A DNA stretch of 64,000 nt from an uncultured Candidatus Saccharibacteria bacterium (GCA_964593885.1 CAZQKK010000001.1:425929-489928), one strand, 5' to 3'. Positions 20,744-40,701 are shown, counted from the first letter of the stretch. The notes: generated from the letters alone by a model not told the origin. Program-made: numbers and translations.

Positions 20744-20768
20744 GTTAGACGTATACTCTCCCTACACT

Positions 20769-21968
20769 ATGCGTAACCGTTCCGCACTTTCGCGCACTGT
20801 CATCGCACTCTTCTCTCTCACCGTTCTTACTGTATCCGGAAGTACTACTTGGCTTATCCCGGTTCGTCCACAGGTAGTAAGAGCGGCTTCAGTAAAAGAC
20901 CTCGAGGCAAAGAAAAAGGCTGCCGCAGAGGCTGCTAAGAAGGCTGCCGCTGAGGCTGCAAAGAAGAAAGAGCAAGCAGCAGCCGCTGCTGCAAAGGTAA
21001 AGCAGGTCACAGGGCAAATCTCTGAGATTGAAGGGGAAATTGTTGAGACGCAGTCAACTATTGTTACCACCCAGACAGAGGTAGAAAAGAAAACTCAGCA
21101 GCTTGCTCTCCTAGAGTCTGACCTGAGGCGTATCCAAGATCAGCAGGATGCCTTGGTTAGGCAGCTCTACATCACCATGGTGAGTCTCCCAGACGAGCTA
21201 GCATTTTTCTCAAACGAGAGTGTCAGCGATAAAGAGAAGAAGCGGGCACAGTTTATTGCTCTCAAGAAGTCTGTTGCCCTCATGTACACCCAGACAACCG
21301 CAGCAAAAATGGCGGTAGAGGAAACGCGTACTGGTTTGGCACGTAAGGCAGACCAACTTGAACAGTTCAAGATGCAGCAGGGCGAGCAGAAGAAGGGACT
21401 TGCTAACTACAAGAGTGCGCAGTCAGATCTCCAGAAAGATGCTGTTGCTGCTGCGGCAAAACTTGAGGCTCAGGCAGCTCAGGCACAGAAGGATGTGGCA
21501 AAAATTGAGCAACAGATTCAGGTAGAGATTAGCAAGGCTATTAAGAGTGGTAACTTTACCGGCGGGGGACCAGGGGTTGGAACGCGTGTAACACGGGGCA
21601 CCTACATTGGGGCAATGGGTTGCACCGGATACTGTACTGGCCCTCACGCTCACCTAGAGTTACGTATTAACAATATTCCAGTAAACCCAACAGGCTACTT
21701 GAGTAACGGCACCTTGAGTTACCCTGTAGCAAACTACACACTTACCCAAGGCTTTGGGTACACCTCGTACGCAGCATCGGGTGCATACGGTGGCAATATC
21801 CACACAGGACTCGATCTCGCAGCCAAGTATGGTACACCAATCTACGCTCCAGCAGATGGTACGGTGATCCTCAATTCGTTCTACCGTGGCTATGGCTATG
21901 CCTGGGCTGCTAAACTAGATTCAGACCCAAACAAAGTGGTCCTCATTGGTCACATGGTGGCCAGGTAA
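20769..21968 (+). CDS. M23 (LytM) peptidase with N-terminal coiled-coil, EnvC/PcsB-like
   Basis: signal peptide, long coiled-coil (KKAAAEAAKK repeats, QQ-rich), C-terminal M23 motifs HTGLDLAA...GTPIYAPADGTV...GHM; follows ftsEX. Confidence 0.8.
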   Translation: MRNRSALSRTVIALFSLTVLTVSGSTTWLIPVRPQVVRAASVKDLEAKKKAAAEAAKKAAAEAAKKKEQAAAAAAKVKQVTGQISEIEGEIVETQSTIVTTQTEVEKKTQQLALLESDLRRIQDQQDALVRQLYITMVSLPDELAFFSNESVSDKEKKRAQFIALKKSVALMYTQTTAAKMAVEETRTGLARKADQLEQFKMQQGEQKKGLANYKSAQSDLQKDAVAAAAKLEAQAAQAQKDVAKIEQQIQVEISKAIKSGNFTGGGPGVGTRVTRGTYIGAMGCTGYCTGPHAHLELRINNIPVNPTGYLSNGTLSYPVANYTLTQGFGYTSYAASGAYGGNIHTGLDLAAKYGTPIYAPADGTVILNSFYRGYGYAWAAKLDSDPNKVVLIGHMVAR

Positions 21969-21989
21969 CAGCTAGCTAAGGAGTTCCCC

Positions 21990-23231
21990 ATGCAGATAGA
22001 TAAAGGTAGGCGTTTTGTAGTGCCAGCGGCTCTCCTCGTTGTCGTGCTTCTCCTCGTTTCTGGTGCCGGCATAACAGGTTACCAGTTTGGACTCCAGCGA
22101 GCAGGGGGATCGGTTACCGTTTCTGGCGATAGGCCAAACCTAGGTACTTTCTGGGAAGCTTGGAACATCCTCGACAAAAAGTTTTACGGCGATACCTCTA
22201 CCGATGCGCGTGTTGACGGAGCCATTTCAGGCATGGTTGCCGGTCTTGGCGATCCTTACACTACCTACCTCGCTCCAAAGCAGGATAAGCTCTTTAGGTC
22301 TGGCCTTGAGGGAAGCTTTGGTGGTATTGGAGCTGAGCTTGAGGTGATCAATGAGCAGCTCACCATTGTCAGCCCGCTCCAAGGAACTCCATCTGAGAAG
22401 AGTGGATTAAAGGCGGGTGATATCATATTGAAAATTGATGGCGAAGAAACAAAGAACCTCAGCTTCCTGGATGCAGTAGACAAGATTAGGGGCGAAAAGG
22501 GTACCGATGTAACTCTCACCATTGGCCGTTCTGGAAAGGATGAGCCTTTTGACGTGAAAGTTACCAGGGATACCATTACGGTAAAGAGCGTGAGCAGCGA
22601 GAACATCGGGCCTAATGGGGAAGTTGCCTACATAAAGCTCAACCAGTTTGGCGAAGATACCTCAAAGCTCTTCAGAGACGCCCTTGCCACAGCTGTTGCT
22701 GATGGTAAGAAAGGGGTTATCGTAGATCTGAGAAACAACCCTGGAGGATTTCTCACCACGGCAATTGATGCAATTGGCTTTGTCCTTCCAGAGACCATTG
22801 CTAGTGATAATGAGTTCCTGAAAGCAAGGACTGCGGTGAGAGAGACGTACAAGAACAAGATAGAAGATAAGCAGGTTGCTACCAACTCACCCGTTGCAGA
22901 CACCATGCCAATGGCGGTGCTTGTGAACGGGGGATCTGCCTCAGCCTCTGAGATTTTTTCTGGAGCGATGAAGGACTACGGCCGAGCAAAACTGGTAGGA
23001 CAGAAAACCTTTGGTAAGGGGAGCGTTCAAGATTTAGTTGAGCTCAAGAATGGTGGTAGTATAAAGGTAACTATTGCACACTGGCTCACCCCACTAGGTA
23101 CAGAGATCAACAAAAAGGGAGTAGTTCCTGACGTTGAGGTCTCACTCAAAGAGGGAGAAAAGCTAAGCTCAAGTGATAGTCAGGTCATTGCAGCTCTCGC
23201 GCAGCTTGGAAGTTCGCTCGCCAAAAAGTAA
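21990..23231 (+). CDS. ctpA: carboxyl-terminal processing protease (S41, PDZ domain)
   Basis: PDZ GLKAGDIILKIDG; S41 motifs VDLRNNPGG and NGGSASASEIF...KTFGKGSVQ. Confidence 0.85.
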   Translation: MQIDKGRRFVVPAALLVVVLLLVSGAGITGYQFGLQRAGGSVTVSGDRPNLGTFWEAWNILDKKFYGDTSTDARVDGAISGMVAGLGDPYTTYLAPKQDKLFRSGLEGSFGGIGAELEVINEQLTIVSPLQGTPSEKSGLKAGDIILKIDGEETKNLSFLDAVDKIRGEKGTDVTLTIGRSGKDEPFDVKVTRDTITVKSVSSENIGPNGEVAYIKLNQFGEDTSKLFRDALATAVADGKKGVIVDLRNNPGGFLTTAIDAIGFVLPETIASDNEFLKARTAVRETYKNKIEDKQVATNSPVADTMPMAVLVNGGSASASEIFSGAMKDYGRAKLVGQKTFGKGSVQDLVELKNGGSIKVTIAHWLTPLGTEINKKGVVPDVEVSLKEGEKLSSSDSQVIAALAQLGSSLAKK

Positions 23232-23249
23232 CAAGCTCTCTCAACACCT

Positions 23250-25370
23250 ATGGCTGAAGACTCGCTCCCACCAGTTCCACCACCAGTACCTGGCGTTGTA
23301 CCACCAGCTAGCCCACAGCCTCCTGTAGCTATTCCTGTGCCACCACCAGTTACTCCAGGGCCTGCAAGTAGCCCAGCTCCAGCGAGTGACGTTAGTGATG
23401 AAGATGTGCCACGCTCAAACCTTAGCCCTTTCAAGTTGCTGGCTAAGAAAGACCAAGGATCCGCAGCCCCACAGGCAAACGTGGTTCCACCACCAACACC
23501 AGTAGCTCCTACTATTCCCCAGCCTAGTCAGCCAGCTGGAGGAATTATGGTTGCAACTCCTAGCCGTGAAGAGCTCCTCAAGCAGGCCGCTGAAGCACCT
23601 GAAGCAAGCTTTATCCTGCCTCCACCTGAGATTATCGCTACCCAGAATAGCCAGGCAACACCTCTAGTGAGTCAGGTTCCACGTCAACCGGGAGCTGCCA
23701 TGCAGCCACTCTTTGAAAAGGATGTGCCCGCACCTAGTAAGCCAATACCAGTAAGGCAAGGTGCTCTTGGAACACCTGCGGCTCCACTTCGCGCTCAGCA
23801 GGTTCCCTTTACACCTCCAAAACAGATGGGTGCGCCAATACCACTCAATGGCGGGGTAAAGCCAAAAATCCCGGGGAGGGTCACGCCTGCCGTGCAAAAT
23901 TCGCTCAACGTAGCTGCTAAAACAGGTTTTGGTGCTGCTCCAAAAAAGCGTAACTTCACTGGTACGCTCATTATTGGGTTGCTCATCTTCATTATTGTCG
24001 GGAGTGGCGCCGCCTACGTAATGGCTAAGAATGGCTCACGCGTTCCCGTGCTCTTTAAGGTGGTTAGTGGCTTAGAGGCTAGTGGCCTTGCAAGCAATAC
24101 GCAGGCACTCTCCTACGTCCAGGCACGTACCCGATACCAGGTGCAGGGTGAGGTTGAGTTGGTGCGATCAGATCTTGTAGATGCAACAGGGAAACCTACC
24201 CTCACCAATGCCGGAGATGCGGCGGCAGGGAGTGTCTACCGCCTGAAGAGCCAAATGGGCCAAGGTGAGTTTAGCGAGAAGGGTGCCAACCACGTAGCAC
24301 TGCTTGCCCTTACGGTAAACCAGAACGATCCTATTCAGCTTGCCCTTAAAGAGAAGCCAGCCAGTACTGACACCGATAACTGGTCTATGTACTTCTCAAG
24401 CAACGATAAGCCACAGCTCTCCTCAATCAAGAGTAGTTTGGTGGCAAAATCGCTCCTCCTTCCAATTCTCCAACCTATCCCACTTGAGAAGCTGCTGACA
24501 CTCCCAACAGGGGAGCTTGCCTACCAGAAGCAGGTGGGAACAAAGGCTGGTACCGTGCTATCTGCCCACAAGTACACCGTTGCTAGCGACAAGCTTAAGG
24601 ACTACTTCCCGGCCAGTGCGGTACTTGAGAACTTTACCCTCACTTCGCGATACACCTGGGCTCAGGGTACAACCCCAGCTGCTCAGACCAGCACCGCAGA
24701 CCTAGAGGGAAAGGTGACGTACCTCCAGAAAACCTATAACTACACCGCTAAGTGGCGCTACGGAAGTTGGGATCAAGCCATAGATGCAAGTGGCGATACC
24801 AGTGGAGCAATAGCAAAGGTAACTGGGATCGAAGTTCCTACACCCACAAGCATGGCAAGTGCTACGGCGCTCATGGGGATTCTCAACCTTACTTCGCTCC
24901 CTAACACGCTTACGGAAGCCGAGGGTGGAAGTGTCTCCACTACCACCGGTGGTGGAAATTCAGGTAGCGCTATCACCCCAACTGGTGAAGGCATCACGGT
25001 GGCGGGTTCAAAGATTACCGTTGCACCCCCAGTTCCCACAAAGCCAGCTTCTACTGAGGCAAAGGCACGTGATACTCAGCGCATCAAGGACCTCGCCGAT
25101 ATCAAGCAGGCGCTCACCGCCTACAAAACCGCAAAGGGAAGCTACCCGGTGAGTATCACGCTCCTCCAGACTGCTGAAGGTGGGGTACTCCTCTCAGAAC
25201 TGGTTCCAACTTACCTGACAAAGCTCCCAATAGACCCCACAAAGACAACCTACTGGTACGAGTACACTTCTACGGGAAGTAGCTTTACCCTGAGGGCGGT
25301 TGCGGAAGATCCAGAAAGTGCTACGGTGAAAAAAGGAAGCATTTACCCATACTTTGAAGTAACTAACTAG
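23250..25370 (+). CDS. large membrane-anchored surface protein: Pro-rich N-terminus, one TM helix, extracellular domain, C-terminal pseudopilin(GspG)-like domain
   Basis: 706 aa; PPVPPPVPG repeats; TM LIIGLLIFIIVGSGAAYVMA; C-terminus ARDTQRIKDLADIKQALTAYKTAKGSYP resembles the type II secretion/type IV pilin core region but without an N-terminal prepilin motif. Confidence 0.55.
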   Translation: MAEDSLPPVPPPVPGVVPPASPQPPVAIPVPPPVTPGPASSPAPASDVSDEDVPRSNLSPFKLLAKKDQGSAAPQANVVPPPTPVAPTIPQPSQPAGGIMVATPSREELLKQAAEAPEASFILPPPEIIATQNSQATPLVSQVPRQPGAAMQPLFEKDVPAPSKPIPVRQGALGTPAAPLRAQQVPFTPPKQMGAPIPLNGGVKPKIPGRVTPAVQNSLNVAAKTGFGAAPKKRNFTGTLIIGLLIFIIVGSGAAYVMAKNGSRVPVLFKVVSGLEASGLASNTQALSYVQARTRYQVQGEVELVRSDLVDATGKPTLTNAGDAAAGSVYRLKSQMGQGEFSEKGANHVALLALTVNQNDPIQLALKEKPASTDTDNWSMYFSSNDKPQLSSIKSSLVAKSLLLPILQPIPLEKLLTLPTGELAYQKQVGTKAGTVLSAHKYTVASDKLKDYFPASAVLENFTLTSRYTWAQGTTPAAQTSTADLEGKVTYLQKTYNYTAKWRYGSWDQAIDASGDTSGAIAKVTGIEVPTPTSMASATALMGILNLTSLPNTLTEAEGGSVSTTTGGGNSGSAITPTGEGITVAGSKITVAPPVPTKPASTEAKARDTQRIKDLADIKQALTAYKTAKGSYPVSITLLQTAEGGVLLSELVPTYLTKLPIDPTKTTYWYEYTSTGSSFTLRAVAEDPESATVKKGSIYPYFEVTN

Positions 25371-25375
25371 CCACC

Positions 25376-25933
25376 ATGTTGCCACTCTACATCGTCCTCG
25401 GAGTTCTCGCCCTCGTTCTCGTCTGGCTCTTCTTCGCCTATAACGGCCTCATTGCTACTAGAAACCAAGCTGATGAAGCACTCAGCGATATTGATGTGCA
25501 GACCAAGCGTCGCTACGACCTCATTCCAAACCTCGTTGAGTCTGTGAAGGGCTACGCCAAGCAGGAGTCTTCAGTTCTTGAGAAGGTTACGGAAGCTCGT
25601 GCTGCCGCTATCAACGCTGGTCAGAGCGGTCTCAAGCAGTCTGAAGAGGCTGAGAATGTCCTTACCGGTGCCCTCAAGAGCGTCTTTGCAGTTGCTGAGA
25701 GCTACCCAGACCTCAAGTCTTCAGCAAACTTCCAGCAGCTCTCCTCTGAGCTTTCAGACACAGAGAACAAGATCATGGCAGCTCGTAGGTTCTACAACGC
25801 AACGGTTCGTGAATTCAACACCAAGCTCCAGGTGCTCCCAACTAGCATCTTTGCTAGGAGCCTGGGCTTCACCGCCAAAGAGTTCTTTGCCAGCGACGAA
25901 GCCTCAAAAGAGGTTGTCAAAGTTTCATTCTAG
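25376..25933 (+). CDS. LemA family protein
   Basis: N-terminal TM plus NGLIATRNQADEALSDIDVQTKRRYDLIPNLVE...ESYPDLKSS pattern of LemA. Confidence 0.85.
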   Translation: MLPLYIVLGVLALVLVWLFFAYNGLIATRNQADEALSDIDVQTKRRYDLIPNLVESVKGYAKQESSVLEKVTEARAAAINAGQSGLKQSEEAENVLTGALKSVFAVAESYPDLKSSANFQQLSSELSDTENKIMAARRFYNATVREFNTKLQVLPTSIFARSLGFTAKEFFASDEASKEVVKVSF

Positions 25934-25965
25934 TTTTTCTACGCGGCTGGTAGGCCGTAATCAAG

Positions 25966-26874
25966 ATGACGCTCTACACGCAAGTTGCCTCAAACCGTTT
26001 TAAAACGGCTTTCTACCTTGGGCTCTTCAGCCTCATCTTCCTTGGTGTAGGCTGGGCGTTTGCCTGGTACTTCCAGATGCCTGGCATCCTGGTGGTTGCC
26101 TCCTTCATCGTGATCATCCAGGGCATTGTCAGCTACTGGTTCTCAGATAGTATCGCTCTAGCAGCCTCTCAGGCACAGCCTCTGTCAAAAGTCTTACAGC
26201 CAAACCAGGAGGCGAGGGTAAGGAAGCTCACCGAGAACCTCTGCATCACGGCAGGGCTCAAGGTGCCACGGCTCTACGTCATCCCCGATACAGCTCTCAA
26301 TGCCTTCGCAACGGGGCGAAACCAAGACCACGCCGCAGTAGCCCTGACGGCTGGATTGGTAGAGCAGCTGGATGACAACGAGCTCTCTGGGGTTATCGCC
26401 CATGAGCTCTCCCACATTGGGAACGAAGACATCAAGCTCATGAGCATGGTAATGGTAATGGCAGGCCTGATTGCCCTGGTTTCAGACTTGGGCATGAGGA
26501 GTATGTTCTACGGAGGAGGCAGGCGGCGCAGCGATGATAACGGAGGAGGAGGTGTCATGCTCTTGATTGCTATTGCCTTGGCTATCTTGGCGCCAATTGC
26601 CGCTACGCTGATTCAACTGGCAATCTCGAGGAAGCGTGAGTTCATGGCCGATGCCACGGCGGTACTGATTACCCGCTACCCAGAAGGCCTGATTTCGGCC
26701 CTCAAAAAGATCAGCGGGGACACTGAGCCACTTGAGGTAGCCAACCGAGGGAACGCCTTCATGTACTTCTCAAACCCCCTCCACAAACAGTTCATGGCGG
26801 GTCTCTTCGCCACCCACCCTCCAGTTGAGGAGCGAATAAAGGCACTTCAGCAGGGTACGGGGATCTCTCTGTAA
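25966..26874 (+). CDS. htpX: M48-family zinc metalloprotease HtpX
   Basis: HEXXH (IAHELSHIGNED), 4 TM segments, C-terminal GLFATHPPVEERI. Confidence 0.85.
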   Translation: MTLYTQVASNRFKTAFYLGLFSLIFLGVGWAFAWYFQMPGILVVASFIVIIQGIVSYWFSDSIALAASQAQPLSKVLQPNQEARVRKLTENLCITAGLKVPRLYVIPDTALNAFATGRNQDHAAVALTAGLVEQLDDNELSGVIAHELSHIGNEDIKLMSMVMVMAGLIALVSDLGMRSMFYGGGRRRSDDNGGGGVMLLIAIALAILAPIAATLIQLAISRKREFMADATAVLITRYPEGLISALKKISGDTEPLEVANRGNAFMYFSNPLHKQFMAGLFATHPPVEERIKALQQGTGISL

Positions 26875-26883
26875 ACCATACAT

Positions 26884-26906
26884 AAAAAACCACCCGTGAA
26901 GGGTGG
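26884..26906 (-). terminator. intrinsic terminator hairpin CCACCC-GTGAA-GGGTGG with A6/T6 run, oriented for the minus-strand ThyX-like gene
   Basis: 6-bp GC stem flanked by A-run on + strand (T-run on - strand) 20 nt downstream of the stop at 26927. Confidence 0.6.
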
Positions 26907-26926
26907 TTGGAACGTTACTCCGGTGA

Positions 26927-28666
26927 CTAGAGCGGGATTTTTGGGTTTCCTCTGGCGAAAGCGTACGCCGGGGTGCGATCGCCACGAGAGAACATCTCCC
27001 ACTCGGGGAAGATCGCAACAGTGGCCACGTGCATCTCGAGAACCTTCTGTCTCACCTCGTGGTTGACATCAGGTTTTCCTCGCTGGAACGCGACGAAGTC
27101 TTGCTGGCGCAAGTTTGCCGCGTACATGTAGCCAACCAGCCAACCCATGGGCAGGATGTACTGGAGCGAGGTGGTATCGATGCCGGCCTGTAGTAGTTTC
27201 TCGTAGAGGTCCCTACTAGCATCTGCTACCCCCATGAGTGCATCGTGGAGCTCGCCAGGCGCGGGTTTGTCGTACCAGTAGAAGCCAATATCTGGAGTTG
27301 CCAGAGTTCGCTTGTGTGTGGACATCCCCATCCGGTGCAGGTCTCGCCAACCTCGGTAGCTGATTACTCCTTTGTAGGCTACGGTGACAACTTCAAACTC
27401 CCGGGGGAGCTTGTCGTACTCACCTCTACCAGCGCTGAAGAGGAGCGAATGGGCTTCCTCAAGGCTACCAGGAGGTTCAGCCCACAGACCGAAGCTGTTG
27501 AGCAGTGTTGTCTCGATTGAGCCCTCAGCATGGACGCTCGTAACGGTCGTATGCCCATAACCTGAGAAGCAAGGAGTATCGAGGTAGTTCCACGCAATGA
27601 CATTTGCCGGTGTCGGCTCGTAGTGACGAGCAAACTGGTCGGCGCCAACCAGAGCTGATTCCTCGAGGAGTAGCTCTACGAGAACCAGGTTCTCGGCAGT
27701 GCCGTCCAGGATGAGGTGTCTGAGGATGCTGGGGAAGCTTTCCCCAGAGCACGTGACACCCAGAGAGGTGCACGTACAGTTGGGCAGGAAGTTCCCACCA
27801 ACATCACAGAGCTCCCCGAAGACCGCCATATCGAGCTCCGAGCTTTTCTCGAAGCCATGACCGTAGGTCTCCCTAAGGAAGGGTCCGAAGTACCCGTCGT
27901 TGTAGTTGTTGGTAGCACTGCCTTGCATCTCGCGATACTTGGTGAAGTAGCTGGCAACCACATCTTGGATCCACAGCGATGTTTCTTCGCTGATGTCCCA
28001 CTCCTCCCAGATAGGGTAGAGCAGGGCATTCGCCAGGTTGACGTAACGGCTGGATAGTTCCACGTAGCCAGCACCCGGTCGAGTCCATTCGATTGACTTC
28101 GCGGTAAGGATCGAAACCCCTTCCACTAAGAAGTGAATGACCCCCATCCGAGCGATGGAGTTGTGGCCGTACTTGTCCAGCCAAACGCTGATGAAGCGTC
28201 TGGCCCGGATGCTCGAGGCGATGCTCGCCCAGAGTGACTTGGGGATCTGGAATGCCGTGAGGAATGCACCTACGAGTTCCGCCGCTTCTGTTGAGTAGTC
28301 GATGAACTCCTGCAAGCAGGTGATCTTCTTCTCAGCGAGGAAGCTCAGTGGGTTCTCGCTCCACTTCTCGTTTTCGATTACCTCGGTGAGGCCCGTTGAT
28401 AGCGTGGAAGGTATCCAGCTGTCAACGAAGATTCCCCGAGCGCCACGTGAGTTCGTCATGCGGCTATACATCGAGAGGAGAGCGGTAACAGCGGTTTCGG
28501 GCAGGTTCTTCAAGAACGCAACACGCTTGGTGCGGTTGGTGAAGAAGCAGTCAATGATTGATCCTTCCAAATCCGTGAAGGAGTATGGAAGGGGGGCTGT
28601 AAGGAACGTTCTTGCAGCAGCGAGGGCGCGTAACGAAGCTTTCATAAGTTTTTCTGGTCCTCCCAT
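26927..28666 (-). CDS. ThyX-family (flavin-dependent thymidylate synthase) homologue, unusually long with two ThyX-like segments and a degenerate signature in the first
   Basis: aa ~165-210 KYGHNSIARMGVIHFLVEGVSILTAKSIEWTRPGAGYVELSSRY aligns to ThyX [42 protein letters not shown] (RHR replaced by TRP); C-terminal LPMGWLVGYMYAANLRQQDFVAFQRGKPDVNHEVRQ aligns to ThyX [36 protein letters not shown]; a second RHR-like segment YRGWRDLHRMGMS lies at aa ~440. Confidence 0.6.
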   Translation of the reverse strand: MGGPEKLMKASLRALAAARTFLTAPLPYSFTDLEGSIIDCFFTNRTKRVAFLKNLPETAVTALLSMYSRMTNSRGARGIFVDSWIPSTLSTGLTEVIENEKWSENPLSFLAEKKITCLQEFIDYSTEAAELVGAFLTAFQIPKSLWASIASSIRARRFISVWLDKYGHNSIARMGVIHFLVEGVSILTAKSIEWTRPGAGYVELSSRYVNLANALLYPIWEEWDISEETSLWIQDVVASYFTKYREMQGSATNNYNDGYFGPFLRETYGHGFEKSSELDMAVFGELCDVGGNFLPNCTCTSLGVTCSGESFPSILRHLILDGTAENLVLVELLLEESALVGADQFARHYEPTPANVIAWNYLDTPCFSGYGHTTVTSVHAEGSIETTLLNSFGLWAEPPGSLEEAHSLLFSAGRGEYDKLPREFEVVTVAYKGVISYRGWRDLHRMGMSTHKRTLATPDIGFYWYDKPAPGELHDALMGVADASRDLYEKLLQAGIDTTSLQYILPMGWLVGYMYAANLRQQDFVAFQRGKPDVNHEVRQKVLEMHVATVAIFPEWEMFSRGDRTPAYAFARGNPKIPL

Positions 28667-28709
28667 CTAATGGGTCACCATGAAGCTACCAGAACTGGCT
28701 CCTGAAAGC

Positions 28710-28742
28710 AAAAAAATGCCGCCAAGTTGCTACTTAGGCGGC
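28710..28742 (-). terminator. intrinsic terminator (GCCGCC-loop-GGCGGC plus T7 on minus strand) overlapping the tmk stop codon
   Basis: 6-bp GC stem 28718-28742, A7 on + strand at 28710-28716. Confidence 0.55.
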
Positions 28743-29456
28743 GCGGAGAATGGGCTCTACAATCGCCCAGATGTCGTTGGCGGTTTCCTCCACGGGCTTG
28801 AGGGTGTTACCAACCTTGTCGTGGCAGTCAACCAGGTGCCAGTTGGCGTAGTGTCCGGCGAGCTCCTGGTAGAGGTTGGCAATCTTCTGGACGTGAGCAT
28901 CGCTGCTCTCGTGACCATCCTTGCCTTCCCCTCCTGTTGCCTGACGAGCATCTGCCATGGCCTGGGTGACCGAGGCTGGTGCTGTTTGAACGATGACCAG
29001 ATCTTCAACAAGGATGCCATTGTGGTGGTACTCTAGGTTGGTAAGCCAGTTGAGGTATTCCTCTAGTTCAACGGGATCGTCGATCTTGGCACCCTGGTAG
29101 GCCATGTTACTTGCCACGTACCTGCCAGTGACGATGTTGATTCCTGCTTCCAGCTTTGGCAACACTTCGCGGGTGAATTCCATCCGATCAACCGCGTACA
29201 GCACGCTCGCGAGCTTGTAGTGGATGTCGTTGGTCTCGCCAAGGCGCCTGCCCAGGTACTCCTTGATGAGTTGACCGTAGGGACCTGCTTCGTAACGGGG
29301 AAGTGCTGCTTCAGCGACGCTGAAACCAGCTTCGCCAATGCGCTTGCACAGCTCTCTGACCTGGGTAGTTTTACCCACGCCACCCGCACTGTCGAGGACT
29401 AAGAGTTTTCCGGGGTAGTTACCCCGGAGTTGGTGGTAGGGACGTAATTGCATCAT
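28734..29456 (-). CDS. tmk: thymidylate (dTMP) kinase
   Basis: P-loop LLVLDSAGGVGKTTQ, Tmk DRY-region TGRYVASNMAYQGA, lid region; aligns along its length with E. coli Tmk. Confidence 0.8.
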   Translation of the reverse strand: MMQLRPYHQLRGNYPGKLLVLDSAGGVGKTTQVRELCKRIGEAGFSVAEAALPRYEAGPYGQLIKEYLGRRLGETNDIHYKLASVLYAVDRMEFTREVLPKLEAGINIVTGRYVASNMAYQGAKIDDPVELEEYLNWLTNLEYHHNGILVEDLVIVQTAPASVTQAMADARQATGGEGKDGHESSDAHVQKIANLYQELAGHYANWHLVDCHDKVGNTLKPVEETANDIWAIVEPILRAA

Positions 29457-29522
29457 GTTGGTTCACGTTTTCCTCACTTGAAACGTCTCTCTCAGCATAG
29501 CGAAAGCCACGTGGAGGGCAAG

Positions 29523-29547
29523 AAAAAACCACACCGGGAGGGTGTGG
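29523..29547 (-). terminator. intrinsic terminator CCACACC-GGGAG-GGTGTGG with T6 on the minus strand, downstream of the dCTP-deaminase-like gene
   Basis: 7-bp stem and A-run (+) / T-run (-), 15 nt after the stop at 29563. Confidence 0.6.
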
Positions 29548-29562
29548 TAGAGGACAAGGGTT

Positions 29563-30669
29563 TTAGGGATTAGGCTCAGCGAAGAACTTCGCCAACCTGA
29601 CGCAGTCTTGGTTCTGGTAGTTGTTGGTACCCGTGCTTCCGTAGGGTTTCTCAGGTGGGGCGCTCATCATCTCCAGCTGGAGCAAGCCAACTGGCTGCTG
29701 GTGTCCGAGTATGAGGGTAGTTAACCCGATGTTCCTAATCTCAAACACCGCACGAGCGCCGCGAAACGCAGGTTTCTCGTTCCAGCCAAAGTGGGGATCG
29801 AAGAACCCCGCATCGTGGCTGAGGAGGGCGCCGTACCGGTGGTCGTGGGCAACCATCTCGCCGCAGACATCCATGGGGATGCAGAGCTGCTCGCACGAAG
29901 CAGCAAGCACGCACTGACCAGGATCGAGGTAGAGCTTTCCCTTGTAGAGACCCTTCGGGGCGAAGTAGTCTGTGGGGTCGGTGTCCTTCCGGCTCAGATC
30001 TAGGGTTCGTCCCGTTCGCCTACCGAGGTAGTTACTGGGAGAGAGTGAGAGATCAAGGTGGAGCTGGATACCGTTCTCCTGCACTGATCCAGGGCACGTA
30101 CCGCCATCAAGCACCCTGTACTGTTCGATGAACTGCCTGAGGGCATTGCCGCGGATGGTCTTGAGCCTCCCAGACTTGATCCGAAGCTGGGCGGCGGGTT
30201 CGCCACCACGTACCGTCAACCTGATGATTTGGGGGGTGATGAGCATGTAGAGCCTGCCCTGGTACCCCTTTGGTACGTGGTTGATGGCGGTGGGATTCTC
30301 GGTGACCACCTGGATTCCCGCAAAGATTCTCCCGAAGGAGCTCTTGGGGTTCACCAGGCCGTCCAAGTACGGGGGGAGGTGCAGGCTTCCCGGGATTTCT
30401 GTGATGTACAGGCTTCCCGGGCTGAGTGTGACGCTCCCTCCCATAGATAGGACGTGGTCATTGAGCCTGTGGCTCTTGATGAAGTCTAGGATGTGGGTGG
30501 TGCCGTCAAGGTTGGGAACCGTCGAGATCTCGGTGATTCTATCGCCAATGACGAGGTCCCACGAGCTTGGCTGCAGGTGCTGAAGGTCGAAGCGCTCAAG
30601 AAAGCGCTGGTCGGCAAGGGTTTTGAGCTGGGTATCGCAGAGCGTTCCAGCGGCGTATGGGTTTTTCAT
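29563..30669 (-). CDS. large (368 aa) dCTP-deaminase-like protein of the dUTPase superfamily (two-lobed 'DCD'-type)
   Basis: C-terminal HDHRYGALLSHDAGFFDPHFGW resembles the dCTP deaminase/dUTPase motif (TAGWIDPGF.G); about twice the size of canonical Dcd; adjacent to tmk and the ThyX-like gene. Confidence 0.6.
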   Translation of the reverse strand: MKNPYAAGTLCDTQLKTLADQRFLERFDLQHLQPSSWDLVIGDRITEISTVPNLDGTTHILDFIKSHRLNDHVLSMGGSVTLSPGSLYITEIPGSLHLPPYLDGLVNPKSSFGRIFAGIQVVTENPTAINHVPKGYQGRLYMLITPQIIRLTVRGGEPAAQLRIKSGRLKTIRGNALRQFIEQYRVLDGGTCPGSVQENGIQLHLDLSLSPSNYLGRRTGRTLDLSRKDTDPTDYFAPKGLYKGKLYLDPGQCVLAASCEQLCIPMDVCGEMVAHDHRYGALLSHDAGFFDPHFGWNEKPAFRGARAVFEIRNIGLTTLILGHQQPVGLLQLEMMSAPPEKPYGSTGTNNYQNQDCVRLAKFFAEPNP

Positions 30670-30754
30670 GTCCGTAGGTCTCCGAAGAGGGCGCTGAAAC
30701 AGGCTCTCAATGCTTGTTATACCAGGTTACTTGCGGGGCGAAAAGGCGGAGTAA

Positions 30755-32819
<2,065 letters not shown>

Positions 32820-32821
<2 letters not shown>

Positions 32822-32841
32822 AAAACACCTCGGGTGAGGTG
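32820..32841 (-). terminator. hairpin CACCTC-GGGT-GAGGTG with A6 (+) / T6 (-), oriented as terminator for the minus-strand membrane-protein genes
   Basis: immediately after the ligA stop; T-run is on the minus strand. Confidence 0.5.
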
Positions 32842-32849
32842 TGGGGGAT

Positions 32850-33311
32850 TTATGCTGGAGTGCCAGGAGGGAGGCTGCAAACTCCCCTGTACGCTTTCCG
32901 AGCCTTGAGCTTTACTTTCACTTTTCGCCTCCGCCCTTTTGGGGGCTTTGGTCTGAAGTAGACTATCCAGAAGATAGCGCAAAGGATGGCTGGAAGGTAC
33001 GCGGCAGGATCTTTCCCGGAGCCTCCGCTTCCGTAGAAGTAGAGGAAGCTGAAAATTCCCAGATTGAGGAGAACAAAGAAGACGAGCTTCGACTCTCGAT
33101 CACTGAGAGTGAGTGAGATGAATGCGTAGAACGCATAGTTTGAGAAAGCGATACCCGCCAGAAAAATGATGAACCTAATGATGCCATGTTCCAAGTTGTG
33201 CAAGAACCTCTGGTAACGTTGTACCAGAAAACCACGAGATACAAAAAAGCCCCGGCTCTCGCCGAGGCTTTTCTTGTAGCCGGGTGGACTACATTTCGAT
33301 GAGCCAGCCAA
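32850..33311 (-). CDS. hypothetical small membrane protein with very basic C-terminus (uncertain)
   Basis: 153-aa ORF, 3 hydrophobic segments, C-terminal KPPKGRRRKVKVKLKARK; supported only by the minus-strand terminator downstream. Confidence 0.3.
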   Translation of the reverse strand: MAGSSKCSPPGYKKSLGESRGFFVSRGFLVQRYQRFLHNLEHGIIRFIIFLAGIAFSNYAFYAFISLTLSDRESKLVFFVLLNLGIFSFLYFYGSGGSGKDPAAYLPAILCAIFWIVYFRPKPPKGRRRKVKVKLKARKAYRGVCSLPPGTPA

Positions 33312-33675
33312 CTACCATACCAAGGACTACAAAGCTCAGAACCCAGTTAGCAATAATTGCCCATTCCAGGTTAGCCTTAGCCTTGAAGTAGCCTGCATCT
33401 GCAAAGAGCGGGATCATGAAGAACGGTACGCCAACCATGAGACCGAGTTGGAACCCTTTCATCACACTGCTCACATCACCGGCGTTGTAGTTCTTGAAGA
33501 GCATAATGAACATCCACGAAATGATGTACATCCCAACTCCTGCAATCACAAACCTGGTAGGGGTGAGCTTCACCGCACTATCGCCTATAAACGACTTAAA
33601 GAGAACACCGTAACACAGAACACCAACCACGAAGATGGCAAGTAAGCCAAAGAGTGCCATCAAGTATTCGTTCAT
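33289..33675 (-). CDS. DUF1761-like 4-TM membrane protein
   Basis: 128 aa, four hydrophobic helices, pattern resembles the DUF1761 family (recollection; unverified). Confidence 0.5.
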   Translation of the reverse strand: MNEYLMALFGLLAIFVVGVLCYGVLFKSFIGDSAVKLTPTRFVIAGVGMYIISWMFIMLFKNYNAGDVSSVMKGFQLGLMVGVPFFMIPLFADAGYFKAKANLEWAIIANWVLSFVVLGMVVGWLIEM

Positions 33676-33782
33676 GGAACCTCCGATGTGGTCTACTGAT
33701 TAGATACCACCAGTGAAGTACGTTTCTGCCCTAAATACAAGCGTTTTGGCAAACAGGAGCGCTTTTGCTAGGATGAACAGGT

Positions 33783-34106
33783 ATGAGCAAGCTCTCCAAA
33801 ACAGACGTCCAACACCTCGCTAGCCTTGCTCGCCTCAACCTGACGGCAGCGGAGTCTGAGCGGTACGCAGACCAGCTTTCAACCATCGTTTCCTACGTTG
33901 ACCAACTCACTAGTGTAGACACTGGAGTTGCTGGGAGCGAAGGGGTCTCGGGTCTCACCAACGTACTCCAGGCAGATGAGCCTCGGGGAAGTGAGAGCCT
34001 TGGAAACCTTAACCCAGACGAGGCACTTGCAGGGGCACCGCTTCGTGACGGGTCTAACCTTGTGGTACGGGCAGTGCTCGGTGCCTCAGATGCGGAGGCA
34101 GCATGA
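33783..34106 (+). CDS. gatC: Asp/Glu-tRNA amidotransferase subunit C
   Basis: LSKTDVQHLASLARLNLTAAE...YVDQL pattern of GatC; ATGA overlap with gatA. Confidence 0.85.
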   Translation: MSKLSKTDVQHLASLARLNLTAAESERYADQLSTIVSYVDQLTSVDTGVAGSEGVSGLTNVLQADEPRGSESLGNLNPDEALAGAPLRDGSNLVVRAVLGASDAEAA

Positions 34107-35608
34107 GCGAAATTTCTAAACCACTCTTTTCGCTTACCGTTGCAGAAGCCGCAGGTTACCTTGAGGACGGCAGCGTCACTTCGCTCCAGCTCACTGAAGC
34201 CTGTCTCAAGCGTATAGAAGAGCTTGAACCAAAGATTAACGCCTTCACGTGGGTTGGCAGAGACCAGGCAGTTGCAGCAGCAAAGGCCAGCGATGAGCGC
34301 CGGGCTGCTGGAAAGACTAAGGGAAAGCTTGATGGGATTCCCTACAACCTCAAAGATGTCTACGCCACCAAGGGAATGCCAACCACTGCCTCTTCACACA
34401 TGCTTGAAGGCTGGATTTCCCCCTACAACGCCACGGTGTTCCAGAAACTTGAGGATGCCGGTTGTGTGCTCCTGGGAAAGACCAACACCGATGAGTTCAC
34501 CATGGGAGTTTCTACTGAAACCTCGTACATGGGAGTTACCCGCAACCCCTGGGACCTGGAGCGGGTGAGCGGGGGATCTAGTGGGGGGCCAGCTGCCTCT
34601 ATGAGCGCCCACATGGGACTCTTCTCTATTGGTACCGATACCGGTGGCTCTATAAGGCAGCCTGCAGCTTTCTGTGGCGTTACGGGCCTAAGGCCAACCT
34701 ACGGGAGAATCAGCCGGTTTGGCGAATTGCCCATGGCATCATCTCTCGATCAAACTGGCCCCATCACCAAAACCGCCTACGACGCAGCGCTCATCTTAGA
34801 GGTGCTCTCAGGGCACGATGAGCTTGATGCCACATCTTCACCAGAACCGGTTGGTGCCTATGCTGCAGACATTGACTCACTCCCACAGGAGAAGCCACTT
34901 GCAGGCATGAAAGTTGGAGTGGCAGAAGAGTACTTTGGCGAAGGGGTGAAGCCAGAGGTTGAAGCTCTCGTGAGAGATGCCATTAAGGAACTTGAAAAGC
35001 AAGGTGCCACTATTGTGGAGGTATCGCTCCCTAACGCCATGCACGCGCTGGCAGTCTACTACATTATCGCTCCAGCTGAGGTCTCCTCAAACATGGCTCG
35101 TTACGATGGCATCAGGTTTGGACACTCCATTGAGCGCGAAGATGGGGAGGGCGCTAAGCACAGTCTCCAGGATATCTACACCAAGAGCCGTACTGAAGGT
35201 TTGGGTGCCGAGGTGAAACGCCGAATTATGCTGGGAACCCACGTACTCTCATCTGGTTACTTTGACGCCTACTACAAGAAGGCTGAGGCAGTTAGGGAAG
35301 TGGTGAGGAGCGAATTTAAGCAGGTCTTCACCCAAGTGGATGCCCTGGTGGCTCCCGTTTCGCCTCACACTGCTTTCAAGATTGGTGAGCAGGTGGGAGA
35401 TCCTCTCGCCATGTACAAGGAAGACATCCTTACCGTTCCCCTCAACATTGCAGGTATTCCAGGTATCAGCATCCCTTGTGGGCAGGCTAACAGCATGCCG
35501 GTAGGGCTGCAGATCATGGCAGACCACTTTGATGAAGCAAGCATTTTCAAGGTTGCTGCTGCCTACCAGCGTGCTACCAACCACCACCAAGAGTTTCCAA
35601 AAGTATAA
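34103..35608 (+). CDS. gatA: Asp/Glu-tRNA amidotransferase subunit A (amidase signature family)
   Basis: amidase signature GGSSGGPAA...GTDTGGSIRQPAAFCGV. Confidence 0.9.
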   Translation: MSEISKPLFSLTVAEAAGYLEDGSVTSLQLTEACLKRIEELEPKINAFTWVGRDQAVAAAKASDERRAAGKTKGKLDGIPYNLKDVYATKGMPTTASSHMLEGWISPYNATVFQKLEDAGCVLLGKTNTDEFTMGVSTETSYMGVTRNPWDLERVSGGSSGGPAASMSAHMGLFSIGTDTGGSIRQPAAFCGVTGLRPTYGRISRFGELPMASSLDQTGPITKTAYDAALILEVLSGHDELDATSSPEPVGAYAADIDSLPQEKPLAGMKVGVAEEYFGEGVKPEVEALVRDAIKELEKQGATIVEVSLPNAMHALAVYYIIAPAEVSSNMARYDGIRFGHSIEREDGEGAKHSLQDIYTKSRTEGLGAEVKRRIMLGTHVLSSGYFDAYYKKAEAVREVVRSEFKQVFTQVDALVAPVSPHTAFKIGEQVGDPLAMYKEDILTVPLNIAGIPGISIPCGQANSMPVGLQIMADHFDEASIFKVAAAYQRATNHHQEFPKV

Positions 35609-35636
35609 ATCCGTTAGTACGTAACCCAAGGACCCT

Positions 35637-36287
35637 ATGAAACCACTCGGACTCATTGCACTCATCCTCGTTCTCCTCATGCCACTTGGTGCCTTCTTCC
35701 TGTCTAACAACCTCAATGTTCCTCTTGATGAGGCCTCACCTTCCCCAACTGTAGCCACTACCACTAACCCAAGTAATATGACCGATCCAGCCGATGTTGT
35801 AAGCGCCCGCGTTGTTATCCTCTCAACCTCAAAGGGAGACATTAAGCTCAACCTCTTCCGAGATGAGACGCCACAGACAGTCAAGAACTTCGTTACCCTC
35901 GGCAAGCGCGGAGCCTACAAGGATGTTATCTTCCACCGCGTCATCCGTGACTTCATGATTCAGGGTGGCGATCCAACCGGTACCGGCAGCGGTGGCTCAA
36001 GTATCTACGGGGCGAAGTTTGCCGATGAGTTTGGTAACGTCGCCACTAGGAAAATGGAGCCAGGTACCATTGCCATGGCCAACTCTGGGGCAAACACCAA
36101 CGGAAGTCAGTTCTTCATCGTTACCGAGACCAACCAGCCACACCTAGACGGCAAGCACACCAACTTCGGGAAGGTTGCCGATGAAGCAAGCATGGCAGTA
36201 GTACGTGCTATTGCGGCAGTTGCAGTTGATAGTCAAGATCGTCCATTGGAGCCAATCACCATTACGGGTTTCAGCATTGTTGAGTAA
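35637..36287 (+). CDS. secreted cyclophilin-type peptidyl-prolyl cis-trans isomerase
   Basis: signal peptide; FHRVIRDFMIQGGDPTGTGSGG...GSQFFIV cyclophilin motifs. Confidence 0.85.
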   Translation: MKPLGLIALILVLLMPLGAFFLSNNLNVPLDEASPSPTVATTTNPSNMTDPADVVSARVVILSTSKGDIKLNLFRDETPQTVKNFVTLGKRGAYKDVIFHRVIRDFMIQGGDPTGTGSGGSSIYGAKFADEFGNVATRKMEPGTIAMANSGANTNGSQFFIVTETNQPHLDGKHTNFGKVADEASMAVVRAIAAVAVDSQDRPLEPITITGFSIVE

Positions 36288-36292
36288 GCCAC

Positions 36293-36784
36293 ATGGCACA
36301 GGACTACCGCCACAACCAGAGGAAACAGCCAAAGGTATCTGCTGAGCAGCAGGTGGTTGAGGCAATTGCCAAGGGGATTTGGGCGGTGGTCAGTTTCCCT
36401 TTCAAGCTTGGAAAGCGGGGAGGATCCTCAAAGAAAGCTGGGTTAGTTCCAGCTACAGTGGCTCAGGAACTGGGGCAGCACTGGGAGGTGGTCTCGCTCT
36501 ACAGCCAGACTCCCAACACCTTTGCAGTTGCCATCTCAGAAGCTGACAAGCTCTTGGACAATGCCCTCAAGGCAGCTAACTTTGCAGGCACCACCATGGG
36601 GGAGAGACTCAAAGCCTCTCAGCACATCTTTGATCCCTACCTCTACAATATGATCTGGGAAGCTCACAAGCTGAGGAATCGCCTTGCCCATGAGGTTGGT
36701 ACCAGTGTGAACGGCCAGGAGGTGCAGCAGGCTCTCCACGCATTTGAGCAAGGGCTAGTAAGGCTAGGTGTATTCATTCACTGA
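36293..36784 (+). CDS. hypothetical protein
   Basis: 163-aa ORF in a coding-dense + strand run; no recognised motif. Confidence 0.45.
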   Translation: MAQDYRHNQRKQPKVSAEQQVVEAIAKGIWAVVSFPFKLGKRGGSSKKAGLVPATVAQELGQHWEVVSLYSQTPNTFAVAISEADKLLDNALKAANFAGTTMGERLKASQHIFDPYLYNMIWEAHKLRNRLAHEVGTSVNGQEVQQALHAFEQGLVRLGVFIH

Positions 36785-36789
36785 AAACC

Positions 36790-37233
36790 ATGGCATTCCC
36801 AGAAAGCCCCAATATCACTCCAGTCTTTGAAACTCCACCAACACGTGAGCAGCTGAGGCAAAGTCTGATAGCTGATCCTTACAATGCCATTATCCGCTCT
36901 GTTGAAGATATTGCTGAGCAGGCGCGAGATCAGTTTGAATCACTGGCCCCTGAAGTTCCTGAAAACCAGGAAAGCATCGTCAATATGTACCGAGAGCTGC
37001 TCACCAATAACTTCGCCCAGCTCCTCCAGAAGGTATCCGAGGAACGAGATGCTCGTCTTACGGAATTTGATAAGCAACCAGAAGAGATTAGCGCCGATAC
37101 AATCACCAAGTGGTACAGTGGCGTTGCCACAAAAGCAGCATCGCTCCAGGTTGCCTACACTTCACGAGCACGTGAAATCCAGAATAGTGCAGTGATGCCG
37201 CTCACCCAATTTGCTAATGCCCACAACCGCTAA
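36790..37233 (+). CDS. hypothetical protein
   Basis: 147-aa ORF, acidic, no recognised motif. Confidence 0.45.
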   Translation: MAFPESPNITPVFETPPTREQLRQSLIADPYNAIIRSVEDIAEQARDQFESLAPEVPENQESIVNMYRELLTNNFAQLLQKVSEERDARLTEFDKQPEEISADTITKWYSGVATKAASLQVAYTSRAREIQNSAVMPLTQFANAHNR

Positions 37234-37236
37234 GCC

Positions 37237-38697: not shown

Positions 38698-38709
38698 CCA
38701 AATTCACCA

Positions 38710-40392: not shown

Positions 40393-40401
40393 GCAACCAC
40401 C

Positions 40402-40695: not shown

Positions 40696-40701
40696 ACTAG
40701 C

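What the first reader, a model, noticed from the sequence alone, without database searches (positions are those of the whole stretch)
26927..30669. Minus-strand thymidylate-synthesis cluster (dCTP-deaminase-like, tmk, ThyX-like) between + strand housekeeping genes
Three consecutive minus-strand genes form a coherent dCTP to dUMP to dTMP to dTDP route: a large dUTPase-superfamily dCTP-deaminase-like protein, thymidylate kinase and a ThyX-family protein. Each has its own downstream hairpin terminator. The block sits between htpX and ligA, both on the + strand. In a reduced genome, clustering a complete thymidylate branch suggests a self-contained module, possibly horizontally acquired. Both the deaminase and the ThyX-like protein are atypical (see separate findings), so a nucleotide-modifying or dNTP-pool-manipulating role cannot be excluded; dCTP deaminases are also used in anti-phage nucleotide depletion.
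Basis: partly seen in the sequence, partly recalled or inferred. Interest (0 to 1): 0.6.

Follow-up and report, generated by a model that had tools for sequence, protein, structure and literature searches.

The report
Swappable thymidylate-synthesis gene cassette
Three real genes for making thymidine nucleotides sit between htpX and ligA in a reduced Patescibacteria genome, and close relatives carry different but functionally equivalent thymidylate gene sets at the same spot, so this is housekeeping metabolism in a slot that gets swapped, not a defence or DNA-modification system.

Summary
Window 26927-30669 carries three minus-strand genes: a two-domain dCTP deaminase (368 aa), thymidylate kinase (240 aa) and a long, internally duplicated ThyX (572/579 aa). 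Each is followed by a hairpin plus U-run. htpX and ligA flank the block.

The long ThyX belongs to a Patescibacteria-wide family that is often encoded next to tmk and a dcd-like gene. PADLOC found no defence-system match of note.

The main new result is comparative. In the closest relative (L046; flanks about 83% nt identical, HtpX 95% aa) the same slot holds thyA, a DHFR-HIT fusion, a dCMP-deaminase-like gene and a cytidylyltransferase-like gene. In two further relatives (L043, L049/L044) dcd and tmk are orthologous and syntenic. There only the thyX coding sequence is replaced, by an unrelated 462-aa fused ThyX type, between a shared ribosome-binding site/start codon and a shared terminator.

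The block is therefore a housekeeping dTMP/dTTP module sitting in a displacement hot spot. Whole-block recent acquisition and the anti-phage reading are not supported.

Still unknown: enzyme activities, the source of dUTPase activity, and the direction of the thyX swap.

The parts
29563..30669 (-). dcd: two-domain (pseudo-dimeric) dCTP-deaminase-like protein, 368 aa. It is the first gene of the module.
   Evidence: It matches Pfam DCD_N, DCD_C and DCD. NF005734 scores 193.5 bits, below its cutoff of 283. It aligns over its full length with PDB 2R9Q from Agrobacterium (E 4e-38). The KSSxGR motif survives only in the N-domain (NPKSSFGRI). The AGFFDP motif and the catalytic-Glu position (VFEIRN, aligned to M. 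tuberculosis D119/E129) survive only in the C-domain. Orthologues are 78% identical in L043 and 75% in L044, at the same position.
28734..29456 (-). tmk: thymidylate (dTMP) kinase, 240 aa.
   Evidence: It matches Pfam Thymidylate_kin (54.3 bits, cutoff 27). NF005923 scores 104 bits, below its cutoff. A P-loop, GGVGKTT, is visible in the translation. Orthologues are 65% (L043) and 80-83% (L044, L049) identical.
26927..28645 (-). thyX, long form: fused, internally duplicated flavin-dependent thymidylate synthase homologue. It is 572 aa from the ATG at 28645; the ORF extends to 28666.
   Evidence: It matches Pfam Thy1 in two stretches. A profile built from the family matches T. maritima ThyX in both halves. 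The AF2 model has pLDDT 87.7 and pTM 0.88. All top Foldseek hits are ThyX or PolB, with probability 1.0 and target TM-score 0.6-0.7. About 175 homologues of 560-620 aa were found; every named one, and all 39 genome loci, are Patescibacteria.
28658..28664 (-). Shine-Dalgarno-like GGGAGGA for thyX. It lies in the segment conserved with L043 up to ATGAAAG.
   Evidence: Junction alignment.
26888..26908 (-). Terminator hairpin plus U-run after thyX. It is conserved in L043 downstream of the other ThyX type, and absent in L046.
28710..28742 (-). Hairpin (GCCGCC..GGCGGC) plus U7 that overlaps the tmk stop codon. It is conserved in L043.
29528..29548 (-). Terminator hairpin plus U-run after dcd. It is 82% similar over 22 nt to the hairpin after thyX.
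30762..30790 (-). Sigma-70-like promoter (TTGAGA-17-TATAGT) upstream of dcd. It lies in the ligA-side flank, which is conserved in L046, where thyA occupies the first position instead.
   Evidence: Function is inferred only.
26869..30752 (.). The variable slot. This whole segment is non-homologous to the closest relative L046, while both flanks align at about 83% nt identity.
   Evidence: blastn aligns window 20407-26868 with L046 1-6455 (83.2%) and window 30753-42832 with L046 10047-22115 (82.4%).

Best explanation
This is the housekeeping thymidylate module of a Patescibacteria (CPR) genome.

Proposed pathway:
- The two-domain DCD deaminates dCTP to dUTP (or to dUMP, if it is bifunctional).
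- The long fused ThyX methylates dUMP to dTMP using methylene-tetrahydrofolate, FAD and NAD(P)H, so no DHFR is needed.
- Tmk phosphorylates dTMP to dTDP.

Transcription probably starts at a promoter in the ligA-dcd divergent region and is modulated by a hairpin after each gene.

The module sits in a slot between htpX and ligA that is a hot spot for functional displacement. Within one small clade the slot holds one of three sets:
- dcd-tmk-thyX(long), in this window.
- dcd-tmk-thyX(462-aa type), in L043 and L049/L044.
- thyA, DHFR-HIT, a dCMP-deaminase-like gene and a cytidylyltransferase-like gene, in L046-L048.

dcd and tmk are ancestral to the clade. The L046 state is derived.

Shown: gene identities by family, fold of the ThyX, synteny, breakpoints and hairpins. 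Inferred: enzymatic activities, promoter use, and one composite active site per fused chain.
For: Families and fold.

The long ThyX is lineage-typical and linked to the pathway:
- All 39 GTDB loci found are Patescibacteria.
- tmk lies upstream on the same strand in 12 of them (in one, L039, with dcd in between) and nearby in 5 more.
- A dcd-like gene is adjacent in 8, including the same dcd-tmk-thyX order in L007.
- The arrangements tmk-thyX (L001, L002) and thyX-dcd-tmk (L045) also occur.

Functional equivalence shown by in situ displacement:
- L046/L047/L048 have thyA (TIGR03284 149.6 bits, above the cutoff of 108) and DHFR in the identical slot, with HtpX 95%, LemA 97% and LigA 91% identical.
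- L043 and L049 have a 462-aa ThyX at the thyX position. Homology with the window stops just after the start codon and resumes at the last codons and the terminator.

Complementary retention of catalytic positions in the long ThyX, all invariant in 25 sequences unless noted:
- N-half: H168 (T. maritima H53), R196 (R78), E203/S205/R207/Y208 (E86/S88/R90/Y91; E203 is present in 24 of 25 and position 208 is Y or F).
- C-half: R445, N518, R529 (R174).
- ThyX active sites lie at subunit interfaces (PMC5954106, PMC3498832), so complementary halves are plausible.

No DCD or ThyX hit in PADLOC. Codon usage is normal.
Against: - No enzyme activity has been tested.
- All three proteins score below the NCBIfam equivalog cutoffs.
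- The long ThyX lacks the canonical RHR triplet in both halves (R-P-G in the N-half, R-(M/Q)-G in the C-half). The R147 position is Asn or Gln.
- No dUTPase is assigned. Whether the genome has dut, thyA or folA elsewhere could not be checked, because only 64 kb was available.
- Three terminator-like hairpins inside one supposed operon are unusual.
- The window's arrangement rests on a single assembly.
Confidence: 0.75

Rival explanations
1. The whole three-gene block is a recently acquired horizontal island in this genome.
For: - Slot GC is 0.562, against 0.523-0.528 in the flanks.
- dcd GC3 lies 2.5 sd above the window mean.
- The block is absent from the closest relative, L046.
Against: - dcd and tmk orthologues (65-83% aa) sit in the same position and orientation in L043, L044 and L049, which branch outside the window+L046 pair. 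L046 is therefore the derived state.
- The codon-preference score is within -0.3 to +0.9 sd.
- htpX has the same high GC3.
- There are no mobility genes and no flanking direct repeats.
Confidence: 0.08
2. The cluster is an anti-phage or dNTP-pool-manipulating or DNA-modification system, for example dCTP depletion or a hypermodified pyrimidine made by a ThyX-like enzyme.
For: - The DCD and ThyX forms are atypical.
- The long ThyX lacks the RHR motif.
- Its top Foldseek hit is PolB, a UMP/dUMP methylase of antibiotic biosynthesis.
Against: - PADLOC gave nothing for DCD or ThyX, and only a weak generic kinase hit for Tmk.
- The long ThyX is near-universal in Paceibacteria-type genomes and is operon-linked to tmk.
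- The slot is filled by thyA or another ThyX type in sister genomes.
- There are no toxin, sensor or nuclease partners.
Confidence: 0.04
3. The long ThyX is not the cell's thymidylate synthase. It is a degenerate paralogue or has another substrate, and dTMP comes from salvage or from another gene elsewhere in the genome.
For: - It scores far below the TIGR02170 cutoff (24.4 against 87.9).
- It lacks equivalents of H79, R80 and R147.
- The rest of the genome was not seen.
Against: - Conservation is strong, with 52% mean column identity over 25 diverse sequences and many invariant Arg, His and Ser residues at ThyX positions.
- tmk linkage is conserved.
- Bona fide thymidylate synthase genes replace it at exactly its position.
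Confidence: 0.1

Closest known systems
Canonical homotetrameric ThyX (T. maritima TM0449, PDB 1O26/1KQ4; M. tuberculosis ThyX)
   Same: The fold is the same (Foldseek probability 1.0). Conserved equivalents of H53, R78, E86, S88, R90, Y91, N163 and R174 are present. Coupling to dTMP metabolism is shared.
   Different: It is a single chain of about 575 aa with two ThyX-like halves and a helical insert of about 90 aa (residues about 75-165). Catalytic positions are split between the halves. The RHR triplet is reduced to a single Arg in each half. It falls below the TIGR02170 cutoff.
Duplicated-domain ThyX noted in Chloroflexi and a few other species (PMC3224940), and the 462-aa fused type (Armatimonadota, Verrucomicrobiota and others)
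   Same: Both have a two-domain fused architecture. The N-halves are homologous by profile-profile comparison (probability 97.8%, E 1e-12). Both have the substrate-loop motif (E-x-S-T-R-Y/F) only in the N-half. The 462-aa type occupies the same genomic position in sister genomes.
   Different: Pairwise identity is only about 25% over 256 aa. The 462-aa type keeps RHR in its C-half and the R147 equivalent in its N-half. The window's family is about 110 aa longer and was found only in Patescibacteria. PMC3224940 called the duplicated form uncharacterised in 2009. From memory and unverified, the roughly 529-aa Chlamydia trachomatis ThyX was shown to be active in 2005.
Two-domain 2'-deoxycytidine 5'-triphosphate deaminase, PDB 2R9Q (Agrobacterium; Pfam PF06559 + PF22569)
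   Same: The alignment is collinear over the full length (residues 8-363 against 11-367, E 4e-38). The split of motifs between the N- and C-domains is the same.
   Different: The sequence is divergent and falls below the NF005734 cutoff. The only close relatives found are two clade members at 75-78% identity. The lineage is Patescibacteria.
Non-homologous displacement of thyA and thyX by lateral transfer (Stern et al. 2010, PMC2826268)
   Same: One thymidylate synthase type replaces another between related genomes. thyA travels with DHFR.
   Different: Here the exchange is resolved at a single locus between genomes with about 83% nt-identical flanks. Three states are seen. Whole pathway sets are exchanged (the dCTP-deaminase route against the dCMP-deaminase route). 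One swap is precise to the coding sequence and joins two fused ThyX types.

Membership tests
ThyX / Thy1 (PF02511, TIGR02170) | Pfam Thy1 match above the gathering score | tested here: met
   57.1 bits against 24.8, in two stretches.
ThyX / Thy1 (PF02511, TIGR02170) | NCBIfam equivalog score (TIGR02170) | tested here: not met
   24.4 bits against a cutoff of 87.9. Only the C-half region 474-555 matches.
ThyX / Thy1 (PF02511, TIGR02170) | ThyX fold | tested here: met
   The AF2 model has pLDDT 87.7. The 50 listed Foldseek PDB hits are all ThyX or PolB, with target TM-score 0.5-0.7.
ThyX / Thy1 (PF02511, TIGR02170) | Contiguous ThyX signature RHR-x7-S-x-R-Y | tested here: not met
   The N-half reads R196-P-G ... 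E203-x-S205-x-R207-Y208. The C-half reads R445-(M/Q)-G with no S-x-R-Y. His and Arg of RHR are absent from both halves.
ThyX / Thy1 (PF02511, TIGR02170) | C-terminal substrate/FAD Arg (T. maritima R174) and N163 | tested here: met
   N518 and R529 are invariant in 25 sequences.
ThyX / Thy1 (PF02511, TIGR02170) | FAD-bound oligomer that converts dUMP to dTMP | not testable with these tools
   Needs biochemistry or genetic complementation.
Two-domain dCTP deaminase (PF06559/PF22569; 2R9Q) | DCD_N plus DCD_C architecture, collinear with 2R9Q | tested here: met
Two-domain dCTP deaminase (PF06559/PF22569; 2R9Q) | NCBIfam NF005734 equivalog score | tested here: not met
   193.5 bits against a cutoff of 283.
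Two-domain dCTP deaminase (PF06559/PF22569; 2R9Q) | Catalytic Glu and motif-III Asp of dUTPase-like dCTP deaminases | tested here: met
   The C-domain AGFFDP and VFEIRN align to M. tuberculosis D119 and E129. KSSFGR is in the N-domain.
Two-domain dCTP deaminase (PF06559/PF22569; 2R9Q) | dCTP deamination, mono- or bifunctional with dUTPase | not testable with these tools
I found no paper on 2R9Q-type enzymes.
Thymidylate kinase | Thymidylate_kin domain with P-loop | tested here: met
   PF02223 scores 54.3 bits against 27. GGVGKTT is present in the sequence. Equivalog cutoffs are not reached.
Anti-phage dCTP deaminase / defence system | Match to known defence-system protein models | tested here: not met
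   PADLOC gave no hit for DCD or ThyX.
Horizontally acquired genomic island | Absent from related genomes at the same site | tested here: inconclusive
   The block is absent from L046, but dcd and tmk are present at the site in L043, L044 and L049. Only the thyX coding sequence differs there.
Horizontally acquired genomic island | Deviant composition, mobility genes or flanking repeats | tested here: not met
   GC is 3.5-4 points higher and codon usage is normal. There is no integrase or transposase in the slot, and no repeats at the slot borders.

The most novel reading that the evidence does not exclude
In these reduced genomes, thymidylate synthesis behaves as an exchangeable cassette plugged in behind a fixed promoter next to ligA. 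Whole alternative routes, and even single coding sequences, are swapped between lineages. In addition, the Patescibacteria long ThyX is a mechanistically distinct flavin-dependent thymidylate synthase. It would be a covalent pseudo-dimer with one composite active site per chain, binding its flavin without the canonical RHR motif.
Probability: 0.3. Interest if true: 0.6.

Novelty: new variant of a known kind. Interest (0 to 1): 0.45.

Why it matters
ThyA/ThyX displacement has so far been inferred mostly from patchy phylogenetic distributions. This locus shows it directly. Three functionally equivalent states sit in one slot between genomes whose flanks are about 83% identical, and the breakpoints can be read at the nucleotide level. 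Partner enzymes travel with each synthase: a dCTP deaminase with ThyX, and a dCMP-deaminase-like gene plus DHFR with ThyA.

It also gives the strongest available genomic argument that the uncharacterised long ThyX of Patescibacteria really is their thymidylate synthase. That family lacks the textbook RHR motif. ThyX is a drug target and a mechanistically unusual enzyme, so this makes the family a worthwhile target for biochemistry.

For genome annotation, the cluster should be read as ordinary dTTP synthesis, not as a defence island.

Tried and rejected
- Looking up the source contig through P0001 returned no record. Cluster look-ups gave no organism names, so the lineage is known only as Patescibacteria, from its relatives.
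- A profile comparison of the N-half against the C-half of the long ThyX found no similarity. The duplication is supported only by each half matching ThyX profiles and by the fold.
- The long ThyX has no match in GenBank phages or in IMG/VR. The L046 ThyA shows only generic similarity, about 32%, to phage ThyA. No phage donor could be named.
- A metagenome scan with HtpX found no further close relatives (best 61%). None of those 80 loci had a thymidylate synthase next to htpX, so the slot association is specific to this clade.
- I considered using the relic PE-stop codons downstream of the window's thyX stop codon to polarise the thyX swap. I rejected this as decisive, because microhomology at the junctions is expected for either direction.
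- Literature searches for CT632 and for 2R9Q/PF06559 gave nothing usable. The Griffin 2005 and Leduc 2004 papers are not held.
- A mis-specified hairpin pattern search returned nothing and was dropped.


Full report
**What is there**

The region holds three consecutive minus-strand ORFs.
- 29563-30669 (368 aa) matches DCD_N, DCD_C and DCD. It aligns end to end with the 370-aa Agrobacterium 2'-deoxycytidine 5'-triphosphate deaminase, PDB 2R9Q (E 4e-38).
- 28734-29456 (240 aa) is a thymidylate kinase.
- 26927-28666 (579 aa) matches Pfam Thy1 in two stretches.

All three fall below the NCBIfam equivalog cutoffs, so they are divergent members of their families. LemA and HtpX precede the block on the + strand, and LigA follows it.

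The consensus scan found terminator-like hairpins after dcd and after thyX. Folding shows a third hairpin plus U7 that overlaps the tmk stop codon.

The thyX start is most likely the ATG at 28645, giving 572 aa, the same as database protein P0001. A GGGAGGA ribosome-binding site lies upstream.

**The long ThyX is a lineage-wide form, not an oddity**

- A database search gave 175 homologues of 560-620 aa at 39-49% identity. Every one that carries a source name is from Parcubacteria-type CPR lineages or is labelled only 'bacterium'.
- A scan of one genome per GTDB species returned 39 loci, all Patescibacteria.
- An exhaustive profile search found 193 cluster representatives at E<=1e-30 and 2246 at E<=1e-3. 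These include a broad second tier of fused proteins of 470-700 aa, one of them from a Woesearchaeota archaeon.
- An AlphaFold model built on 25 sequences is confident (pLDDT 87.7, pTM 0.88). All of its PDB matches are ThyX or the ThyX-like PolB.

**Residue mapping against T. maritima ThyX**

- The N-half keeps invariant H168 (H53), R196 (R78) and S205/R207 (S88/R90). E203 (E86) is present in 24 of 25 sequences, and position 208 (Y91) is Y or F.
- The C-half keeps invariant R445, N518 and R529 (R174).
- The His and Arg of the RHR signature are missing from both halves.
- The R147 position is Asn (N-half) or Gln/Glu (C-half).

ThyX active sites are built at the interface of subunits (PMC5954106, PMC3498832). 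I therefore infer, but could not test, one composite site per fused chain.

The two-domain DCD shows the same kind of split. KSSxGR is found only in the N-domain. The AGFFDP motif and the catalytic Glu position are found only in the C-domain.

**Pathway linkage elsewhere**

I built profiles iteratively from the fetched loci and scanned the 39 genome loci.
- tmk lies upstream of the long thyX on the same strand in 12 loci (in one, L039, with dcd in between). It is within a few kb in 5 more.
- A dcd-like gene, long or short form, is adjacent in 8 loci.
- L007 has the same dcd-tmk-thyX order as the window. L045 has thyX-dcd-tmk.
- Genomic contexts differ widely, for example after rplK/rplA or next to secDF.

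The three genes therefore form a functionally coupled set that moves around within Patescibacteria genomes.

**The key comparative result**

Four relatives share the window's wider gene order: ftsEX, M23 and S41 peptidases, a pseudopilin-like protein, lemA, htpX, then the slot, then ligA and gatCAB.

L046/L047/L048 are the closest.
- The assemblies come from three sequencing samples, and a further seven places with the same neighbours were not shown.
- HtpX is 95%, LemA 97% and LigA 91% identical.
- blastn gives 83.2% over 6.5 kb on the left and 82.4% over 12.1 kb on the right.
- Homology stops at window 26868 and resumes at 30753.
- Between those points L046 carries a cytidylyltransferase-like gene, a dCMP/cytidine-deaminase-like gene, a DHFR-HIT fusion and thyA (TIGR03284 149.6 bits, cutoff 108).
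- The right breakpoint lies about 20 nt upstream of the ligA ATG. The promoter-like TTGAGA-17-TATAGT element that faces dcd stays in the conserved flank.

L043 and L049/L044 are further out.
- They keep orthologous dcd (75-78%) and tmk (65-83%).
- At the thyX position they carry a 462-aa fused ThyX that is only about 25% identical to the window's over 256 aa.
- The nucleotide alignment runs through the tmk hairpin, the ribosome-binding site and ATGAAAG. Similarity is then lost for the whole coding sequence. It returns at CC(A/G)GAGTAAC and the shared terminator.
- The 462-aa family (MKVT...EGSAEPE) occurs at 52-59% identity in Armatimonadota, Verrucomicrobiota, Bacteroidota and Clostridia. It also occurs on eight large IMG/VR contigs.
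- Its N-half is homologous to the N-half of the window's family (probability 97.8%).

**History of the slot**

A neighbour-joining tree of LemA+HtpX gives (((window, L046), L049), L043), with L021 and L041 as outgroups. dcd and tmk at this site are therefore ancestral to the clade, and the thyA set in L046 is a derived whole-module replacement.

The direction of the thyX swap is unresolved.
- Evidence that the 462-aa type is ancestral: the ladder topology, and the PE-stop relic that sits just past the window's thyX stop codon (two bases intervene).
- Evidence that the long form is ancestral: its ubiquity in Patescibacteria, the dcd-thyX(long) pair near lemA-htpX in L041, the high GC of the 462-aa gene in the low-GC genome L043 (0.569 against 0.44-0.53), and the jump in L043-L049 identity at the thyX boundary (0.61-0.64 in tmk against 0.78-0.88 in thyX).

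**Composition**

- The slot is 56.2% GC, against 52.3-52.8% in the flanks.
- z-scores against 62 window genes are 1.2-2.1 for GC and 1.3-2.5 for GC3. htpX (both GC and GC3) and ligA (GC only) share the trend more weakly.
- Codon preference is normal.
- No mobility genes and no repeats at the slot borders were found.
- No second copy of any of the three families is present in the window.

**Interpretation**

The cluster is ordinary dTTP synthesis. It combines the dCTP-deaminase route (route a in PMC10733785) with a flavin-dependent synthase that needs no DHFR. The sister genome uses the dCMP-deaminase, ThyA and DHFR route (route b). Replacement of the gene, or of the whole set, by bona fide thymidylate synthases at the same position is the best available evidence that the long ThyX does the same job.

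The anti-phage and nucleotide-modification ideas have no support. Extensive lateral displacement of thyA and thyX is already established (PMC2826268), and a duplicated-domain ThyX has been noted as uncharacterised (PMC3224940). The finding is therefore a well-resolved new variant of known things, not a new kind of system.

**Limits**

- No activities were tested.
- The dUTPase step is unassigned.
- The rest of the genome was not seen.
- The window's state rests on one assembly.
- Donors were not identified.

Noticed in passing
L046:8020-8985 (minus strand): In the sister genome's thymidylate set, dihydrofolate reductase is fused to a C-terminal HIT (histidine-triad nucleotide hydrolase) domain (DHFR_1 at residues 7-172, HIT at 215-300). 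I do not know of this combination.
   Followed up: partly
L130-L137 (IMG/VR contigs of 63-479 kb): The 462-aa fused ThyX type occurs on eight large contigs classed as viral (37-47% identity), without dcd or tmk beside it. The Patescibacteria long ThyX was not found in IMG/VR or in GenBank phages. Whether these contigs are truly viral was not checked.
   Followed up: partly
window 23250-25370 (+): A 706-aa protein with a long Pro/Ala/Val-rich low-complexity N-terminal region and a C-terminal type II secretion pseudopilin (T2SSG) domain. It is conserved in size and position in L043, L046 and L049.
   Followed up: no
window 26884-26905 and 29523-29544: The terminator hairpins after thyX and after dcd are 82% identical over 22 nt (AAAAAACCAC(C/A)C...GGGTG). 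This suggests a shared terminator family or duplication.
   Followed up: partly
L101, L108, L129 (about 7-9 kb downstream of lemA-htpX): Two adjacent, slightly overlapping thymidylate-kinase-like ORFs in tandem in three distant Patescibacteria contigs.
   Followed up: no
L004, L008, L011, L030, L039: Short (190-263 aa) dCTP-deaminase-like genes, rather than the two-domain form, lie next to the long thyX in five genomes. Both DCD architectures therefore pair with this ThyX.
   Followed up: partly
L045:11761-11764, L041:7857-7873: thyX and dcd overlap by a few bases in two relatives (thyX stop / dcd start in L045; the dcd and thyX ORFs in L041). This suggests translational coupling, in contrast with the hairpin-separated genes of the window.
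   Followed up: no
window 13960-14045 (+): A single tRNA-Leu is the only RNA gene detected in the 64-kb window.
   Followed up: yes
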